NCBI GenBank assembly: GCA_035273045.1
Contig: DATEPR010000191.1
Coordinates: 1 to 30,461 of the forward strand
Source: Pseudonocardiaceae bacterium
GTDB taxonomy: Bacteria; Actinomycetota; Actinomycetes; Mycobacteriales; Pseudonocardiaceae
Reading direction: 5' to 3'
DNA length: 30,461 nucleotides
This document shows, piece after piece, positions 2,669 to 29,142 of the stretch. Each line of letters starts with the position of its first letter. The first letter of the stretch is position 1. The notes beneath the pieces are model-generated. The model had not been told where the DNA came from, made no database searches, and worked only from the letters and a program-made list of their open reading frames with translations. A program made the position numbers and the translations under genes.

Positions 2669-3706
2669 CTAGCCGTTCAGGCCGGAGAACGGCGCCAGGA
2701 TCTGCCGGACGTCGAAGTGCTGGTTGATGTAACCGGCCTTCTGCATCAGGTCGGCGACCCGCTGGATCCGGGCCGGGTCCAGGTCGGGCGGGAAGCCGGG
2801 CAGCGCCATGACGTCCAGCACCTGCTGGGACAGTGACGGCAGGTGCCGGTGGACCGCCTGCTCGACGGTGTTCCGGTTGTTCGTCGCGGCCGCGGCCCTG
2901 GCCATCGCCTTCTGGAACGCGGCGAGGGTCTTCGGGTCGCTCTGCACGAACTTGTCGGTGGAGAAGTAGCCGGCGTTCGGGATGTTGGCCTCGGCGCTGC
3001 CCTGCGGGAACAGGTCGACCACCGGACGGGCACCCAGCGCCTGCGCGGCCTCCGTGGTGTACGGCTCACTGGTCACCGTGGCGTCCACGCTGTGGCTCTT
3101 CAGCGCCGTCTCGCTCTGCGCGTACGGGACGGTGATGAAGTGCACGCTGTTCGGGTCGACGTTCACCGCGGCCAGGCTCTGCTTCAGCGTCGCGGTGATG
3201 CCGTCCTTGAGGGAGCTGACGCCGATCTTCTTGTTCTTGATGTCGGCCAGCTTGGTGATGCCGGAGCCGGGCAGGGCCGAGATCACGAAGGTGTTCGGGG
3301 CGCTGCTCGGGCCGTCGAACACCAGCTTCAGCGGCTGGCCCTTGATCTTGGCCGTGATGCCGCTGACGTCGTTGGCCAGCGTGATGTCCAGCGCGCCGCC
3401 CTCCAACTGGCTGAGCGCCTGGCCACCGTTGGAGGTGGTGACGATCTGGACGTTCAGGCCGGCCTGGTTGAAGAAGCCCTTGTCCTCGGCGATGTACAGC
3501 ACCGCGGAGGACGAACCGGCGATCGCGCCGACCTTGAGCGTGGGCTTCTCCAGGCCCACGTTCGGCGCCACTGTGGAGGGAGAGGGATTGCTGCCGGAAA
3601 GGGCGCTGCAGGACGCCGTCAGCACCAGCGCGCACATCGCGGTTGCACCGAGGGCGACTCGACCTGTTAACCGGCCGGAGCGGGCCTCGCGGACACGCCA
3701 CACCAT
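2669..3706 (-). CDS. ABC transporter substrate-binding lipoprotein (SsuA/NMT1/TauA-like)
   Basis: Lipobox-like LTASC; AEDKGFFNQAGLNV; SEPYTT; 12 nt upstream of the permease; AAAGGA SD. Confidence 0.88.
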   Translation of the reverse strand: MVWRVREARSGRLTGRVALGATAMCALVLTASCSALSGSNPSPSTVAPNVGLEKPTLKVGAIAGSSSAVLYIAEDKGFFNQAGLNVQIVTTSNGGQALSQLEGGALDITLANDVSGITAKIKGQPLKLVFDGPSSAPNTFVISALPGSGITKLADIKNKKIGVSSLKDGITATLKQSLAAVNVDPNSVHFITVPYAQSETALKSHSVDATVTSEPYTTEAAQALGARPVVDLFPQGSAEANIPNAGYFSTDKFVQSDPKTLAAFQKAMARAAAATNNRNTVEQAVHRHLPSLSQQVLDVMALPGFPPDLDPARIQRVADLMQKAGYINQHFDVRQILAPFSGLNG

Positions 3707-4120
3707 AGCTAGTTGTTTCCTTTGCCGTGAAGGACACGCGATACGGGATCACGTTGGACGGGGCATTCGGGGACTTGCGAAAACGCGGGCGGGGTGGGAC
3801 TCATTTCCGGGAATGCCGTCGCGCGCCCGGACGCCGGCATTCCGGCCGCACAGCGGACCCGGGTGGGCACCCGGGTGTCGACGGGACGGCGTGTGCCCAC
3901 GGGGCCGGGCACGGCACGCCGGCGGAACGGGATCGGACGGTTCACGGAACGCGATGCACCTTTACTGCGAGTGATGTCGGGGTCAGTCTGGTAACCCGTC
4001 GCAGCTCACGGGCTCGGGACGATACGCTGCGCGAGCCGCCCGGGTCACGGGCGGACATGCTAGTTGGTGCCGTGTCACGTCGATGTGGGCACACGGCGTC
4101 GGGACCACTCGCGAGGGGTG

Positions 4121-4134
4121 AAGTGTCGACACTT
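4121..4134. promoter_or_regulatory. Perfect 14-bp palindrome AAGTGTCGACACTT, candidate operator (core GTGTCGACAC repeated at 4251-4260)
   Basis: Read directly from sequence in the divergent SBP/DinB intergenic region. Cognate regulator unknown. Confidence 0.45.
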
Positions 4135-4387
4135 GGCCGGGTTCGGCGGCCGTGGCGACGCCCGTCGGCACTCGCCCCGGTGGGGCAATTAATGCCTGGC
4201 CGGAAAATCCGTGGTGCCGACTCGCGATCACGCGCGACAGAATGTCACGGGTGTCGACACTGTGTCAAACCCCTGGCCAGGCGTTTTCCGGCGTGAGGCA
4301 CGTCGACAGGCACCCGAATAGTCGGCCCACCGGCATATCCTCGCCGGTGCCGTATCCACAGTTGACCGGACAGCGGAGGCGCAGTCG

Positions 4388-4900
4388 ATGACCAGCACGG
4401 ACGTACTGATTGACGGGTTCGGCCGGGTTCGCGGGTCGGTCCACGCGGCGGTGGACGGGTTGACCCCGGACGAGCTCACCTACCGGGTGGACGCCGAGGC
4501 CAACTCGATCGCCTGGCTGGTCTGGCACCTGACCCGGGTGCAGGACGACCATGTCGCCGACGTCGCCGGGCTGGAACAGGTGTGGACGGCGAAGGGCTGG
4601 GTGGACCGGTTCGGCCTGCCGTTCGACCGGCTCGACACCGGCTACGGCCACAACTCCGACGACGTGGCCGCGGTGCGCGTCGAGTCCGGGGAACTGCTCA
4701 CCGCCTACCACGACGCCGTGCACCAGCAGACCGTCGACTACGTCAGCGGCCTGACCGACGCCGACCTGCCGCGGATCGTCGACGAGGGCTGGGACCCGCC
4801 GGTCACGCTCGGGGTGCGGCTGGTCAGCGTCATCGACGACGACCTGGAGCACGTCGGCCAGGCGGCTTTCGTCCGCGGAATCGTGTTGCGCCGCCGGTAG
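4388..4900 (+). CDS. DinB-superfamily protein, mycothiol S-transferase-like (DUF664)
   Basis: NSIAWLVWHLTRVQDDH and DDDLEHVGQAAFVRG metal-binding motifs typical of actinobacterial MSTs; GGAGG SD. Confidence 0.85.
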   Translation: MTSTDVLIDGFGRVRGSVHAAVDGLTPDELTYRVDAEANSIAWLVWHLTRVQDDHVADVAGLEQVWTAKGWVDRFGLPFDRLDTGYGHNSDDVAAVRVESGELLTAYHDAVHQQTVDYVSGLTDADLPRIVDEGWDPPVTLGVRLVSVIDDDLEHVGQAAFVRGIVLRRR

Positions 4901-27003: not shown

Positions 27004-28380
27004 ATGACAGGTCAGATCCTCGTTCCGTTCGATGGAGAGGGTGCTGGCGTCGAGGACCTCACATGGGGGCAGATCGGCTTCTGGCAGGGGATCGCGGAGG
27101 CGGGACGGTCGCTCACCATGGGCGGCGTGACCTCGCTGCCGCCCGGCCTCACCGTCGACGACTTGGCGGAGGCCCTGCGGTTCGCCATGTCACGGCACCA
27201 GTCGCTGCGCACCCGGCTGCGCCTGGACCCGAACGGCGGGCGGCCCAAGCAGGTGTGCTCGTCGTCCGGCGTGGTGCCGATGGAGATCGTGGACGTCGAC
27301 GCGGCAGGCGACCCGGCCGCCGTCGCCGACGAGGTGCTGGCCCGCTACGAGGAGCGGCACTTCGACTACGAACACGAGTGGCCGGTCCGGATGGCGGTGA
27401 TCCGGCACGACGGCCGCATCACCCACGGCGTCGTGATCTACCTGCACACCGCCATCGACGCGGGCGGCCTGGACGTGCTGCTCGCCGACCTGGCCGCCCG
27501 CGACCCGAGGACCGGTGCGGCCAGGGGGCCGGTCACCGCGACGCAGCCGCTGGCCCAGTCCCGGCAGCAGCGCAACGCCGCGGCCCGCCGGACCTGCCAG
27601 TCGTCACTGCGCCACCTGGAACACGTGCTGCGCACGGTCAGCCTGAACCGGTTCGGCGAACCGCGGTACGGCGACGAGCTGGCCATCCGGTTGATCCGCT
27701 ACCACTCGCCGGCGACCGCCCTGGCGGTCACGCGGATCGCGGCGCAGGAGAACGCCAACACGTCGTCGGTGCTGCTGGCCTGTTTCGCCGTGGGCCTGGC
27801 CCGGTTCACCGGCAACAACCCGGTGATGGCCATGGTGCTGGTGAGCAACCGGTTCCGGCCCGGGTTCGCCGAGTCGGTCAGCCCGGTGGTCCAGGTGAGC
27901 CCCTACCTGATCGACGTCGCCGACGTGTCGCTCAGCGAGGCCGTCAGCCGCGCGAAGGTCAGCGTGCTGAACACCTACAAGAACGCCTATTACGATCCCT
28001 ACGAGCAGGACGCCGTCATCGAACGGGTCAACGTGGAACGCGGCGCGGAAGTCGACATGTCGTGTTTCTACAATGACCGCCGCCGAGGTGACCGGGGACC
28101 GGCGGCGGGACCGTTGCCGTCGGCCGCCGACATCACCGCGGCACTGGCCGCCGCGGATTACCGGTGGGAACACGAAGCCGACCCGCCGCGGCGCAAACTC
28201 TACTTCAACGTCGACGATCCGCCGGGCGCCATCGACTTCGCGATGTCCGCGGACACCAGGTACTTCGACGACGACGACATGATCGCCATCGTCCGGGGCG
28301 TCGAAGCCGCCGCCGTGGCGGCCGCGCTGGAGCCGGCCGCGCCGACCGGTGTCCGGACACCGGCGTCGATTCGGCTCTGA
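27004..28380 (+). CDS. Stand-alone NRPS-type condensation-domain protein, 458 aa
   Basis: LTWGQIGFW (C1-like), RHQSLRTR (C2), FDYEHEWPVR, active-site variant YLHTAIDAGG (HHxxxDG-like), SNRFRPGFAESVSP. No A or T domain. Confidence 0.85.
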   Translation: MTGQILVPFDGEGAGVEDLTWGQIGFWQGIAEAGRSLTMGGVTSLPPGLTVDDLAEALRFAMSRHQSLRTRLRLDPNGGRPKQVCSSSGVVPMEIVDVDAAGDPAAVADEVLARYEERHFDYEHEWPVRMAVIRHDGRITHGVVIYLHTAIDAGGLDVLLADLAARDPRTGAARGPVTATQPLAQSRQQRNAAARRTCQSSLRHLEHVLRTVSLNRFGEPRYGDELAIRLIRYHSPATALAVTRIAAQENANTSSVLLACFAVGLARFTGNNPVMAMVLVSNRFRPGFAESVSPVVQVSPYLIDVADVSLSEAVSRAKVSVLNTYKNAYYDPYEQDAVIERVNVERGAEVDMSCFYNDRRRGDRGPAAGPLPSAADITAALAAADYRWEHEADPPRRKLYFNVDDPPGAIDFAMSADTRYFDDDDMIAIVRGVEAAAVAAALEPAAPTGVRTPASIRL

Positions 28381-28548
28381 ACGTTCCGCGCGCATTGTCG
28401 CGGCACCTTCGCGCCCGTATTTCCCAAGACGGTTGGGATTGGAGCCACAATGCCGGCTCCGGCTCCCGGAGCTGGTTTACTCGATTCGTTCATCGGGCCC
28501 GGTGAATTGTTCGCCCGTGTCGATTCCGTAGGGAAGGGGGGTGGCATC

Positions 28549-28605
28549 ATGCGCAGGTCGGTCAAGTCGTTCCGCACGGTGATCAAGCGCACGGAGATCA
28601 AGTAA
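28549..28605 (+). CDS. Putative 18-aa cationic micropeptide MRRSVKSFRTVIKRTEIK
   Basis: All 18 codons end in G/C amid an AT-richer intergenic region. AAGGGGGGTG SD-like tract upstream; TAA stop; hairpin downstream. Below the ORF-track cutoff. Confidence 0.6.
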   Translation: MRRSVKSFRTVIKRTEIK

Positions 28606-28624
28606 CGAGCTTCCCACACGGATG

Positions 28625-28660
28625 GGCGGGGGTGGCGGCACCGTGACTGCCACCCCCGTT
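28625..28660 (+). terminator. GC-rich hairpin after the micropeptide ORF (terminator or RNA stabiliser)
   Basis: CGGGGGTGGCGG (28627-28638) pairs with CTGCCACCCCCG (28647-28658): 12-bp stem with one G-U pair, 8-nt loop. Confidence 0.7.
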
Positions 28661-28680
28661 GGGTGTCCTAGGCTCGGGCG

Positions 28681-29142
28681 ATGGCCACCGAGATCGAACG
28701 CAAGTTCCTGGTCGCGCTCGACTGGTCACCGGGCGAACTGGACCCGACCCCGGTCCGCCAGGGCTACCTGACCGACAACGGTGCCGGCACCGAGATCCGG
28801 GTGCGCGCGCACGGCCAGCGGCGCCTGATGACCGTGAAGCGCCGCCGCTCGTCGGCCGGCGCCGCGGTGCGGGACGAGATCGAGTTCGCCGTCCCCGACC
28901 AAGTCTTCGACGAGCTCTGGCTGCTCACCGAGGGCCAGCGGGTGGCGAAGCTCCGTTACGCGGTGCCGCTCGGCGAGTTGCAGGCGACCGTGGACGTGTA
29001 CGCCGACCGCAACGACGGCCTCCGCGTCGTCGAGGTGGAGTTCCCCAGCGAGCAGGCCGCGGCCGAGTTCACGCCGCCCGAATGGTTCGGTCCGGAGGTC
29101 ACCGGAGACCCCCGCTACAGCAACCGCCGCCTCGCCCAGTAG
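28681..29142 (+). CDS. CYTH domain protein (triphosphate tunnel metalloenzyme), probably leaderless
   Basis: EIERKFLV (ExExK), RQGYL, EIRVR, RDEIE, K-R-Y, EVEF, DPRYSN. TAGGCT 6 nt before the ATG. Confidence 0.92.
   Translation: MATEIERKFLVALDWSPGELDPTPVRQGYLTDNGAGTEIRVRAHGQRRLMTVKRRRSSAGAAVRDEIEFAVPDQVFDELWLLTEGQRVAKLRYAVPLGELQATVDVYADRNDGLRVVEVEFPSEQAAAEFTPPEWFGPEVTGDPRYSNRRLAQ

What the first reader, a model, noticed from the sequence alone, without database searches (positions are those of the whole stretch)
28549..28660. Micro-ORF absent from the ORF track, with coding-type codon bias, internal pentapeptide repeats and its own 3' hairpin
Seen: all 18 codons end in G/C. The peptide is three R-x-x-[VI]-K units (RRSVK, RTVIK, RTEIK), and the last two are encoded by a 15-bp tandem repeat with one mismatch (cgcacggtgatcaag / cgcacggagatcaag). 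It has 4 Arg + 3 Lys against 1 Glu. The downstream CYTH gene has its own leaderless-type -10 (TAGGCT, 28669-28674), so this ORF is unlikely to be a CYTH attenuator leader. An in-frame upstream ATG at 28450 (GGAG SD) would give a 51-aa form containing a TTA codon (28477-28479); its first 33 codons have poor GC3, so the short form is preferred.
Basis: partly seen in the sequence, partly recalled or inferred. Interest (0 to 1): 0.7.

Follow-up and report, generated by a model that had tools for sequence, protein, structure and literature searches.

The report
Conserved repeat micropeptide gene beside condensation enzyme
The 18-codon ORF is a real, translated and conserved micro-gene for a basic tandem-repeat peptide, and relatives of it sit directly behind one clade of stand-alone condensation-domain enzyme genes, which suggests an undescribed enzyme and micropeptide pair.

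Summary
ATG 28549 to TAA 28605 encodes MRRSVKSFRTVIKRTEIK, with a strong SD, a 15-bp tandem repeat and a GC hairpin (28625-28660).

I collected 20 distinct copies from 11 of 12 species of one uncultured Pseudonocardiaceae genus and from soil metagenomes. All keep SD, ATG and an open frame of 12-37 codons. The peptides are built from S-(A/V/L)-R-x-V-x units.
- Ser is encoded 14 times by TCN and 16 times by AGY.
- pN/pS is 0.30.
- 57 of 102 substitutions fall at third codon positions.

So the peptide is under selection. The 51-aa long form is refuted by 1-nt indels in the upstream block. That block is a non-coding ~120-nt leader, about as conserved as the coding DNA of the neighbouring CYTH gene.

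CYTH keeps a leaderless-type TANNNT promoter in this clade, also in two relatives that lack the module. Two orphan copies face convergent genes. A CYTH attenuator is therefore unlikely.

Unexpected: a well-supported clade of the 458-aa stand-alone condensation proteins has a repeat micro-ORF just downstream in 14 of 14 assessable cases, including another genus (MIEIKRVAVKRVAVKN). A separate genus has MIEIK overlapping the enzyme's stop codon.

Function is inferred, not shown. The most likely role is partner or substrate of the condensation enzyme. The scan's own note e1-5301470 proposed this pairing on this window.

The parts
27004..28380 (+). Stand-alone condensation-domain protein (458 aa), with the active-site variant YLHTAIDAGG. 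It belongs to the clade whose genes are followed by repeat micro-ORFs.
   Evidence: Pfam PF00668, E = 1.1e-19. Nearest solved relatives are the stand-alone C domains 6cgo and 4znm. The H-x3-D motif is kept in 41 of 42 homologues. Tree clade with 100/98 support.
28427..28548 (+). Conserved non-coding 5' leader of the micro-gene. It begins with box A at 28427-28452. The motif CTGGTTTACTC at 28472-28482 is identical in 18 of 20 copies. Hairpin P2 is at 28489-28506. A small hairpin P3 at 28524-28535 abuts the SD.
   Evidence: Covariance model R1 scores 119.7 bits on the window. 1-nt indels between copies exclude coding. P2 has compensatory G-C to A-U changes in two copies. Nucleotide identity between copies is 0.58-0.84, close to CYTH coding DNA (0.71-0.85) and above the next 120 nt upstream (0.49-0.63). 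No Rfam match.
28536..28541 (+). Shine-Dalgarno run GGGGGG, 7 nt before the ATG.
   Evidence: A G-run or GGGAG lies 6-8 nt from the ATG in all 20 copies. The same GG(A/G)GGTG context precedes the micro-ORFs behind other condensation genes.
28549..28605 (+). Micro-gene: 18 codons plus TAA, encoding MRRSVKSFRTVIKRTEIK.
   Evidence: Family evidence for translation and purifying selection.
28573..28602 (+). Two 15-bp tandem repeat units (RTVIK / RTEIK) with one mismatch.
   Evidence: A close relative lacks exactly one unit (15 nt left out at 28573).
28625..28660 (+). GC-rich 3' hairpin with a G-run on the 5' arm, no U-tract. Outer pairs extend it to about 28606-28677.
   Evidence: A strong equivalent hairpin is present in all 20 copies, with a compensatory change in one (GGGGATGGG / CCCATCCCC in M050).
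28669..28674 (+). TAGGCT, the -10 of a leaderless-type CYTH promoter, 6 nt before the ATG at 28681.
   Evidence: TANNNT followed by 6-7 nt and a start codon is conserved in G000, G008, G007, G005a, G006a, G009, G001 and M065, and in the module-less L066 and G003. Inference from conservation only, with no transcript-start data.
28681..29142 (+). CYTH (triphosphate tunnel metalloenzyme) gene, 153 aa. It is the downstream neighbour in 18 of 20 copies.
   Evidence: Pfam PF01928. Synteny. Orthologues without the module exist.

Best explanation
The ORF at 28549-28605 is a genuine protein-coding micro-gene whose selected product is the peptide itself: a short polycationic chain of 5-6-residue repeat units, each carrying a Ser or Lys.

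It is a self-contained unit with three parts. There is a conserved, partly structured ~120-nt leader that ends in a strong SD. The repeat ORF follows, and its unit number expands and contracts in-frame. A stable GC hairpin closes or insulates the unit from the CYTH gene, which in this clade is inferred from a conserved -10 element to be leaderless.

The unit belongs to a wider set of repeat micro-ORFs that have been co-inherited with one clade of stand-alone condensation-domain enzymes. The most likely role is therefore as dedicated partner of the upstream 458-aa condensation protein. It would most plausibly serve as the acceptor substrate, with the Lys or Ser side chains receiving an acyl or aminoacyl group.

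Shown by comparison: conservation, peptide-level selection, a non-coding leader and co-inheritance with the enzyme clade. Translation is inferred from these. Inferred only: the promoter, termination at the hairpin, and any modification of or binding to the peptide.
For: Coding.
- All 20 distinct copies keep SD, ATG and an open frame of 12-37 codons.
- The 30 S-(A/V/L)-R-x-V units occur in 26 different nucleotide versions. Ser is TCN 14 times and AGY 16 times.
- Over 10 disjoint pairs pS = 0.357 and pN = 0.106, a ratio of 0.30. Differences by codon position are 25/20/57.
- Length changes within the ORF are whole codons, while the leader tolerates 1-nt indels.
- One 15-nt unit is missing in a close relative.

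Autonomy.
- Orphan copies in G005 and G006 are followed by convergent genes.
- G010 has a tandem duplicate.
- The CYTH promoter is kept with and without the module.
- The stop codon lies 19-30 nt before the first hairpin, and the arms that an antiterminator would need are both G-rich.

Link to the enzyme.
- A condensation gene lies directly upstream in 11 of 20 copies, including both orphans.
- In the ML tree the 10 module-bearing enzymes included (of the 11) form a 100/98 clade with L110, L092, L078, L079 and L077. All 14 assessable members have a repeat micro-ORF 47-190 nt downstream with a GG(A/G)GGTG SD and a GC hairpin.
- In another genus the micro-ORF is the last cistron before a convergent gene.
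- In a separate enzyme clade, 5 of 5 species have MIEIK overlapping the enzyme's stop codon through ATGA.
- G003 lacks both the module and the whole enzyme family but keeps CYTH.
- The catalytic H-x3-D is kept in 41 of 42 enzymes.
- Background rate: only 115 strong-SD ATG sORFs lie outside long ORFs in the 4.46-Mb genome.
Against: - No experimental evidence of translation, of a peptide, or of any modification exists. The organism is known only from metagenome-assembled genomes.
- In a second clade of 8 copies no condensation gene lies upstream. Two of these have only a 38-45% paralogue convergent behind CYTH. The CYTH link (18 of 20) is numerically stronger there.
- Those genomes carry a different repeat micro-ORF behind the orthologous enzyme. 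Pairing may therefore be with another peptide, and the SARRV-type peptide may have a separate role.
- A 5-residue MIEIK, identical at every nucleotide in five species, looks more like a translational or regulatory device than a substrate.
- I did not look for a carrier protein or adenylation enzyme to supply a donor.
- Codon usage of the family (rich in CGT and GCT) departs from both average and ribosomal-protein genes. Nucleotide-level constraints or recent repeat amplification therefore also shape the ORF.
- The peptides have no leader/core architecture of the kind typical for modified ribosomal peptides.
Confidence: 0.45

Rival explanations
1. An autonomous small polycationic protein with no functional tie to the condensation enzyme. 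The Arg/Ser/Lys-rich disordered peptide would bind a polyanion such as RNA, ribosome or polyphosphate. It might act with the CYTH triphosphatase next door, or on its own conserved leader or hairpin RNA in the manner of arginine-rich-motif peptides.
For: - Peptide-level selection and autonomy are as in the best explanation.
- 18 of 20 copies sit directly upstream of CYTH on the same strand.
- The clade-2 copies have no adjacent condensation gene.
- A second RS-repeat micro-ORF elsewhere in the genome (C314:3785-3883) has no condensation gene in the 395 nt available upstream.
- The leader and the 3' hairpins are conserved to a degree that would suit a protein- or peptide-binding RNA.
Against: - It does not explain why every assessable member of one enzyme clade, across two genera, keeps a repeat micro-ORF just downstream.
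- It does not explain why both orphan copies travelled with an enzyme paralogue rather than with CYTH.
- CYTH orthologues do without the module in G003, L066, L062 and L068.
Confidence: 0.25
2. A cis-acting leader ORF. Translation of the micro-ORF, pausing at Arg, Ser or rare CGT/AGG codons, would control read-through of the downstream hairpin(s) into CYTH.
For: - The ORF, then hairpin(s), then CYTH lie on one strand in 18 of 20 copies.
- In clade 2 and in G010, CYTH has an SD (GAGGAG or AGGGAG) and no TANNNT between hairpin and start. It must therefore be read from the micro-ORF transcript.
- Contigs from soil RNA libraries run from 28533 or 28536 across the ORF and hairpin into CYTH. This is weak evidence, because DNA carry-over is not excluded and a contig is not a transcript.
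- Most copies have two successive hairpins, and the ORF is unusually rich in CGT and AGG codons.
Against: - In the window's clade CYTH keeps its own leaderless-type promoter.
- Orphan copies regulate nothing downstream.
- The stop codon lies 19-30 nt before the first hairpin, so a terminating ribosome would not reach it.
- No mutually exclusive antiterminator pairing was found by inspection of the minimum-free-energy folds.
- The whole repeat unit is conserved, not only one kind of codon.
- CYTH is not an amino-acid biosynthesis gene.
- Repeat number varies from 1 to 6 units.
Confidence: 0.15
3. A non-coding element: a small RNA, or just the 3' UTR and terminator region of the condensation gene. 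In this reading the ORF is incidental and the repeats are RNA-level motifs.
For: - The leader is more uniformly conserved than the ORF.
- ATGCG(T/C)AG is conserved at nucleotide level even where the third residue differs.
- Codon usage is atypical.
- Other frames are also open in several copies.
Against: - Ser switches between TCN and AGY at the same motif position.
- There are 26 nucleotide versions of 30 repeat units.
- pN/pS is 0.30 with a third-position excess of changes.
- SD and ATG are kept at fixed spacing in 20 of 20 copies.
Confidence: 0.05

Closest known systems
RiPP-type pairs of a precursor peptide and a tailoring enzyme, especially lipidated ribosomal peptides and multi-core precursors
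   Same: A very short ribosomal ORF is kept next to, and co-inherited with, a single enzyme gene. The repeat units each offer one nucleophile (Lys or Ser). Peptide sequences diverge quickly between paralogous enzyme loci.
   Different: - The enzyme is an NRPS-type condensation domain, for which I know no precedent acting on a ribosomal peptide. This rests on my own knowledge; the literature searches found none.
- There is no leader/core architecture.
- No protease, transporter or recognition domain was identified.
- No product is known.
- Some partners are only 5 residues long.
Stand-alone condensation enzymes that join a carrier-bound acyl group to a free nucleophile (Bamb_5915, PDB 6cgo; SgcC5, PDB 4znm)
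   Same: These are the closest solved relatives of the upstream protein by sequence. They have the same stand-alone format, and the catalytic His and Asp are kept.
   Different: Those enzymes sit in polyketide or enediyne clusters next to their carrier proteins and act on small-molecule acceptors. Here the conserved neighbour is a micro-ORF, and the family has 5-18 paralogues per genome.
Leader-peptide transcription attenuators (trpL, hisL, thrL type; actinobacterial examples in PMC1262725)
   Same: A short ORF with repeated codons, followed by a hairpin and then a gene on the same strand.
   Different: - No antiterminator alternative was found.
- The stop codon lies well before the hairpin.
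- The hairpin has no U-tract.
- The whole repeat unit is conserved.
- Orphan copies exist.
- The downstream gene has its own promoter in this clade.
Very small basic actinobacterial ribosomal proteins bS22 and bL37
   Same: Size, extreme basicity, a strong SD and a terminator hairpin. My genome-wide sORF scan recovered them with the same criteria.
   Different: - Those proteins occur throughout the Actinomycetota and have fixed length and sequence (my own knowledge).
- This family is confined to one genus among those searched.
- It varies from 12 to 37 residues.
- It is duplicated or absent in some genomes.
- It shows no sequence similarity to them.

Membership tests
Leader-peptide transcription attenuator | Short ORF directly upstream of, and on the same strand as, the regulated gene | tested here: inconclusive
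   True for 18 of 20 copies (CYTH). Two orphan copies are followed by convergent genes.
Leader-peptide transcription attenuator | Intrinsic terminator between leader ORF and gene, with a mutually exclusive antiterminator that overlaps the ORF or its stop | tested here: not met
   A strong hairpin is present but has no U-tract. The stop lies 19-30 nt upstream of the first hairpin. The arms that would have to pair are both G-rich. No alternative pairing appears in the folds of the 20 copies.
Leader-peptide transcription attenuator | Regulatory codons match the pathway of the regulated operon | tested here: not met
   The downstream gene is a CYTH triphosphatase-type enzyme, not an Arg, Ser or Val biosynthesis gene. 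The whole S-A-R-x-V unit is conserved, not one codon type.
RiPP precursor peptide | Short ribosomally encoded peptide genetically linked to its modifying enzyme | tested here: met
   A condensation gene lies upstream in 11 of 20 copies. 14 of 14 assessable members of the enzyme clade have a micro-ORF. 5 of 5 species of another clade have an overlapping MIEIK.
RiPP precursor peptide | Leader (recognition) region plus core region, and an enzyme from a known RiPP tailoring family | tested here: not met
   The peptides are 5-37 residues made almost wholly of repeats. The neighbour is PF00668, which is not a known RiPP tailoring family to my knowledge.
RiPP precursor peptide | A post-translationally modified product | not testable with these tools
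   This needs mass spectrometry in a cultured relative or a heterologous host.
Small ribosomal proteins bS22 / bL37 | Sequence similarity and near-universal single-copy presence in Actinomycetota | tested here: not met
   The genome has separate bS22-like and bL37-like ORFs (C125, C674). The module was not found in 146 genomes of 59 other genera of the family, nor in 150 genomes of 19 families of the order.
Type I toxin / membrane micropeptide | Hydrophobic transmembrane stretch | tested here: not met
   Composition over 20 copies is R 24%, S 21%, V 16%, A 9%, K 6%, with no hydrophobic run.
Known structured RNA family (riboswitch or leader) for the 5' block | Match to an Rfam covariance model, or strong covariation for a multi-helix fold | tested here: not met
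   No relevant Rfam hit even at E up to 10. Only one hairpin (P2) shows compensatory changes, and P2 is deleted in two copies.
NRPS-type condensation domain (the upstream partner) | PF00668 fold and HHxxxDG catalytic motif | tested here: met
   PF00668, E = 1.1e-19. The motif variant is L-H-x3-D-A, with the catalytic His and the Asp kept in 41 of 42 homologues.

The most novel reading that the evidence does not exclude
A clade of stand-alone NRPS-type condensation enzymes in Pseudonocardiaceae uses dedicated, ribosomally made tandem-repeat micropeptides as acceptor substrates. It would acylate or aminoacylate one Lys or Ser per repeat unit. The 18-residue peptide in this window would be one such substrate. 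This would be a new route to hybrid ribosomal/non-ribosomal peptides that needs neither a leader peptide nor an assembly line.
Probability: 0.2. Interest if true: 0.85.

Novelty: new variant of a known kind. Interest (0 to 1): 0.6.

Why it matters
Gene callers miss ORFs of this size, and the 37-residue family member I searched with has no counterpart in a 1.8-billion-protein library. This work gives comparative evidence that such a micro-gene is under peptide-level selection, and a covariance model that finds it.

More important is the recurrent pairing of repeat micro-ORFs with one clade of stand-alone condensation enzymes. This gives a concrete, testable lead on what these enzymes do. They are abundant, with 5-18 paralogues per genome here. 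If the peptides are their substrates, this would be a new class of modified ribosomal peptide. If they are not, the pairing still defines a new conserved bicistronic arrangement that needs explaining. Complete or near-complete genomes of relatives (genera of G069 and G297), which may be isolates, would make experiments possible.

Tried and rejected
- **51-aa long form (28450-28605):** rejected. The frame is not conserved and the block has 1-nt indels.
- **Rfam:** nothing relevant on the window region or on three related loci.
- **Promoter and terminator scan of 28200-28900:** nothing called. I could not place the micro-gene's promoter. By eye there is an AT-richer stretch just 5' of box A, but no consistent TANNNT.
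- **Paralogues in the window's own genome:** nhmmer found only the one copy. The assembly is 71% complete.
- **Peptide searches:** HMMER of the 37-aa family member against 1.84 billion representatives gave 0 hits. The ESM Atlas gave no usable hit. The search for homologous proteins refuses queries under 40 aa.
- **Complex prediction:** the 37-aa peptide against its CYTH neighbour returned 'no answer' (score 0.00, partner pLDDT about 30). This counts neither for nor against binding.
- **Codon usage as a sign of high expression:** rejected. Ribosomal and EF genes of G008 use CGT for 14% of Arg codons and GCT for 3% of Ala codons, far from the family's 42% and 45%.
- **SD sequestration by the leader:** the predicted unpaired probability of the SD is low in most copies (median about 0.25). 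There was no shuffled control and no consistent anti-SD, so it was not used.
- **Soil metatranscriptome contigs:** they cover the ORF and bridge into CYTH, but depth is similar on the condensation gene and DNA carry-over is not excluded. Used only as a weak hint. Uncovered parts were not interpreted.
- **Contig L054 (two copies):** excluded. It has 36-40 gap openings per kb relative to L051 and its CYTH is frameshifted too.
- **Pattern hits in Porticoccus, Algimonas and Chthoniobacterales contigs:** not confirmed by the covariance model, so taken as chance matches.
- **Literature searches:** no description of this arrangement.

Full report
**1. What is in the window**

The stretch 28381-28680 lies between a 458-aa condensation-domain gene (27004-28380, PF00668) and a 153-aa CYTH gene (28681-29142, PF01928), all on the + strand. 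The micro-ORF runs from ATG 28549 to TAA 28605 and encodes MRRSVKSFRTVIKRTEIK.
- All 18 codons end in G or C.
- The last ten sense codons are a 15-bp tandem repeat with one mismatch (28573-28587 and 28588-28602).
- A G6 Shine-Dalgarno run ends 7 nt before the ATG.
- A GC hairpin occupies 28625-28660. The stretch 28600-28680 folds at -44.4 kcal/mol, z = -2.95.

**2. Related copies**

A DNA search of relatives showed that the region is conserved within the genus and that some genomes hold two copies. From 12 copies I built the covariance model R1, which covers the upstream block plus the first five codons.
- R1 finds the element in 11 of 12 species of the genus, 14 copies in all.
- It finds none in 146 genomes of 59 other genera of the family, and none in 150 genomes of 19 families of the order. 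Both searches used Infernal's stricter filters.
- A pattern scan of GTDB genomes named the genus members as uncultured Pseudonocardiaceae from soil metagenome assemblies.
- Metagenome contigs and contigs found through CYTH orthologues added six more distinct copies.
- One contig, L054, was excluded as riddled with indel errors.

**3. The ORF is coding, and the peptide is what is selected**

All 20 copies keep the SD, the ATG at 6-8 nt, and an open frame of 12-37 codons. The peptides start M-R-(R) and consist of one to six units of S-(A/V/L)-R-x-V-x. Examples are MRSVKSARMVIK, MRRTQSLRRVSSARRVSARSVQAD and a 37-mer.
- The 30 S-(A/V/L)-R-x-V units occur in 26 different nucleotide versions.
- Their Ser codon is TCN 14 times and AGY 16 times. 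That switch needs two substitutions and is expected only under selection on the amino acid.
- Over ten disjoint pairs pS = 0.357 and pN = 0.106, a ratio of 0.30. One pair (G004 and M052) differs by seven synonymous changes and one non-synonymous change.
- Differences fall 25/20/57 on codon positions 1/2/3.
- A roughly 94%-identical relative in soil libraries lacks exactly one 15-nt unit.

One caveat: codon usage of the family is odd. CGT is 42% of Arg codons, GCT is 45% of Ala codons and GC3 is 0.80. This differs from neighbouring genes and from ribosomal-protein genes. Repeat amplification or nucleotide-level constraints therefore also act on the ORF.

**4. The upstream block is a non-coding leader**

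Between copies the block has 1-nt deletions and insertions, and in G008 and G007 the upstream ATG is out of frame with the micro-ORF. The 51-aa form is therefore refuted, and the 'TTA codon' is part of the motif CTGGTTTACTC (28472-28482), which is identical in 18 of 20 copies.
- The leader (28427-28548) is 0.58-0.84 identical between copies. This is close to CYTH coding DNA (0.71-0.85) and well above the next 120 nt upstream (0.49-0.63).
- One hairpin (P2, 28489-28506) shows compensatory G-C to A-U changes, but it is missing from two copies.
- A small hairpin of variable sequence abuts the SD.
- Rfam has no match.

I could not locate the promoter, and I do not claim a riboswitch.

**5. Relation to CYTH**

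In 18 of 20 copies CYTH follows on the same strand. In the window's clade, TANNNT followed by 6-7 nt and a start codon is conserved in all 8 CYTH-linked copies. It is also conserved in two CYTH orthologues that lack the module altogether: L066 (77% identity) and G003 (80%). Two more distant orthologues, L062 and L068, also lack the module.

In a second clade and in G010, CYTH has an SD and no such promoter, so there it is probably read from the micro-ORF transcript. Those copies carry two hairpins and an invariant stretch, CTGGGTAGCCTGAC.

The stop codon always lies 19-30 nt before the first hairpin, and I found no antiterminator alternative. Two orphan copies, in G005 and G006, are followed by convergent genes. 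A classical attenuator for CYTH is therefore unlikely in this window.

**6. Relation to the condensation enzyme**

This context was unexpected. The enzyme gene lies directly upstream in 11 of 20 copies, including both orphans, where an enzyme paralogue and the micro-gene were evidently duplicated together.
- The enzyme family is expanded to 5-18 paralogues per genome, and most paralogues have no module.
- I surveyed 32 further homologue loci across the family and built an ML tree.
- The 10 module-bearing enzymes included in the tree form a 100/98-supported clade with L110 (another genus), L092, L078, L079 and L077.
- Every assessable member of that clade (14 of 14) has a tandem-repeat micro-ORF 47-190 nt downstream, with a GG(A/G)GGTG SD and a GC hairpin.
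- The peptides differ widely: MIEIKRVAVKRVAVKN, MTVEPVLSPIIEPVLSPR, MAKPLKPPVKPSFKPLKPVQS.
- The sister clade has none.
- In a separate enzyme clade, five of five species of another genus have MIEIK overlapping the enzyme's stop codon through ATGA.
- In G069 the micro-ORF is the last cistron before a convergent gene.
- G003 lacks the module and the whole enzyme family but keeps CYTH.
- The catalytic His and Asp are kept in 41 of 42 enzymes.
- As a background rate, a scan of the 4.46-Mb genome found only 115 strong-SD ATG sORFs outside long ORFs. That scan also recovered bS22-like, bL37-like and PqqA-like genes.

**7. Interpretation**

Shown by comparison: a conserved micro-gene under peptide-level selection, with a non-coding conserved leader and a conserved hairpin, co-inherited with one enzyme clade. 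Translation is inferred from these patterns, not observed.

Inferred: the peptide works with the condensation enzyme. The closest solved relatives of that enzyme are stand-alone C domains that join a carrier-bound acyl group to a free nucleophile. Each repeat unit offers one Lys or Ser, so an acceptor-substrate role is the most economical mechanism. I give the whole statement 0.45, made up as follows:
- about 0.85 that the micro-gene is real and under peptide-level selection;
- about 0.2 for actual enzymatic modification.

Rivals:
- an autonomous polyanion-binding peptide, possibly tied to CYTH (0.25);
- a cis-acting leader for CYTH (0.15);
- a non-coding element (0.05).

Weak points: clade-2 copies lack an adjacent enzyme gene, the 5-residue MIEIK looks regulatory, I did not look for a donor-supplying gene, and there are no experimental data.

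**8. Earlier notes of the scan**

Note e1-5301470, on this same window, proposed the enzyme and micropeptide pairing from adjacency alone. Note e1-5301472, on the active-site variant, agrees.

**9. Novelty**

There is no Rfam or Pfam family, no protein-library hit and no paper found. As a conserved small-protein gene it is a new family of a known kind. The pairing with condensation domains is, as far as I could find, undescribed, so I rate it a new variant of a known kind.

Noticed in passing
G000 contig C314:3785-3883 (- strand; own genome, outside the window): A second micro-ORF with a strong SD and a downstream hairpin: MIEIKGPMSHHGERHRGRRRHSRSRSRSRSRD. It shares the MIEIK start with the micro-ORFs behind condensation genes in other genera, and the Arg/Ser repeats with the clade-2 peptides. 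No condensation gene lies in the 395 nt available upstream. The downstream gene is convergent.
   Followed up: partly
L117-L121 (genus of G093, G132, G297, G357, G424); e.g. L119:2895-2912 (+): A five-codon ORF MIEIK overlaps the stop codon of the condensation gene through ATGA, with an SD GAGGGAGGTG inside the enzyme's 3' end. It is identical at every nucleotide in five species. L121 has a second copy 82 nt further on. A hairpin and an FAD/NAD-binding-type gene follow.
   Followed up: partly
L030, L023, L025, L050, L051, L052, L057, L067 (clade-2 copies), between the micro-ORF stop and the CYTH start: The stretch CTGGGTAGCCTGAC followed by a GGGGGTGGGTGCGCG hairpin is almost invariant, while the 5' arm of the preceding hairpin varies. 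In several copies an outer stem (for example GGCGAGGG / CCTTCGCC, or GGCGTCGG / CCGACGTC) encloses both hairpins just before the CYTH SD. This may be a separate structured regulatory RNA for CYTH.
   Followed up: partly
Genus-wide; in G000: C191:27004-28377, C292:1922-3265 and 3393-4730, C137:1970-3301, C576:421-1698, C537:6328-7587: The roughly 450-aa stand-alone condensation family is expanded to 5-18 paralogues per genome, some in tandem. Other clades are followed at once by KAS III-like, E1-alpha-like or DinB-like genes. One genus member, G003 (90% complete), has none at all.
   Followed up: partly
window 28681-29142 and orthologues: This CYTH orthologue was not found at E <= 1e-10 in 78 genomes of 59 other Pseudonocardiaceae genera. 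In the protein library, identity drops from at least 62% (genus clade, about 60 clusters) to at most 54% (Streptomyces, Kitasatospora, Micromonospora, Chthoniobacterales). This may reflect acquisition by the genus.
   Followed up: no
G000 contigs C125:4808-4909, C674:7777-7851, C508:553-645, C514:9918-10007, C208:5222-5326: The strong-SD sORF scan also picked up a bS22-like ORF, a bL37-like ORF and a PqqA-like ORF. It further found a Cys-rich 29-mer (MTSTEHPHGGCSCCANCTGPGCGCCSGCK) and an acidic 34-mer, which could be unannotated small genes.
   Followed up: no
L023 (G002), about 60 nt upstream of the leader: Direct repeats of GTCC(T/C)GAAATGGCT lie just 5' of box A, with similar TCCGAAAT words in G004, M051 and M052. 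These may be an operator or promoter element for the micro-gene in clade 2.
   Followed up: no
window 28488-28516: GTTCATC / GTTCGCC words recur at 22-nt spacing, with an inverted copy between them (the 3' arm of P2). The third copy is not kept in deeper copies, so I did not pursue a repeat-operator reading.
   Followed up: no
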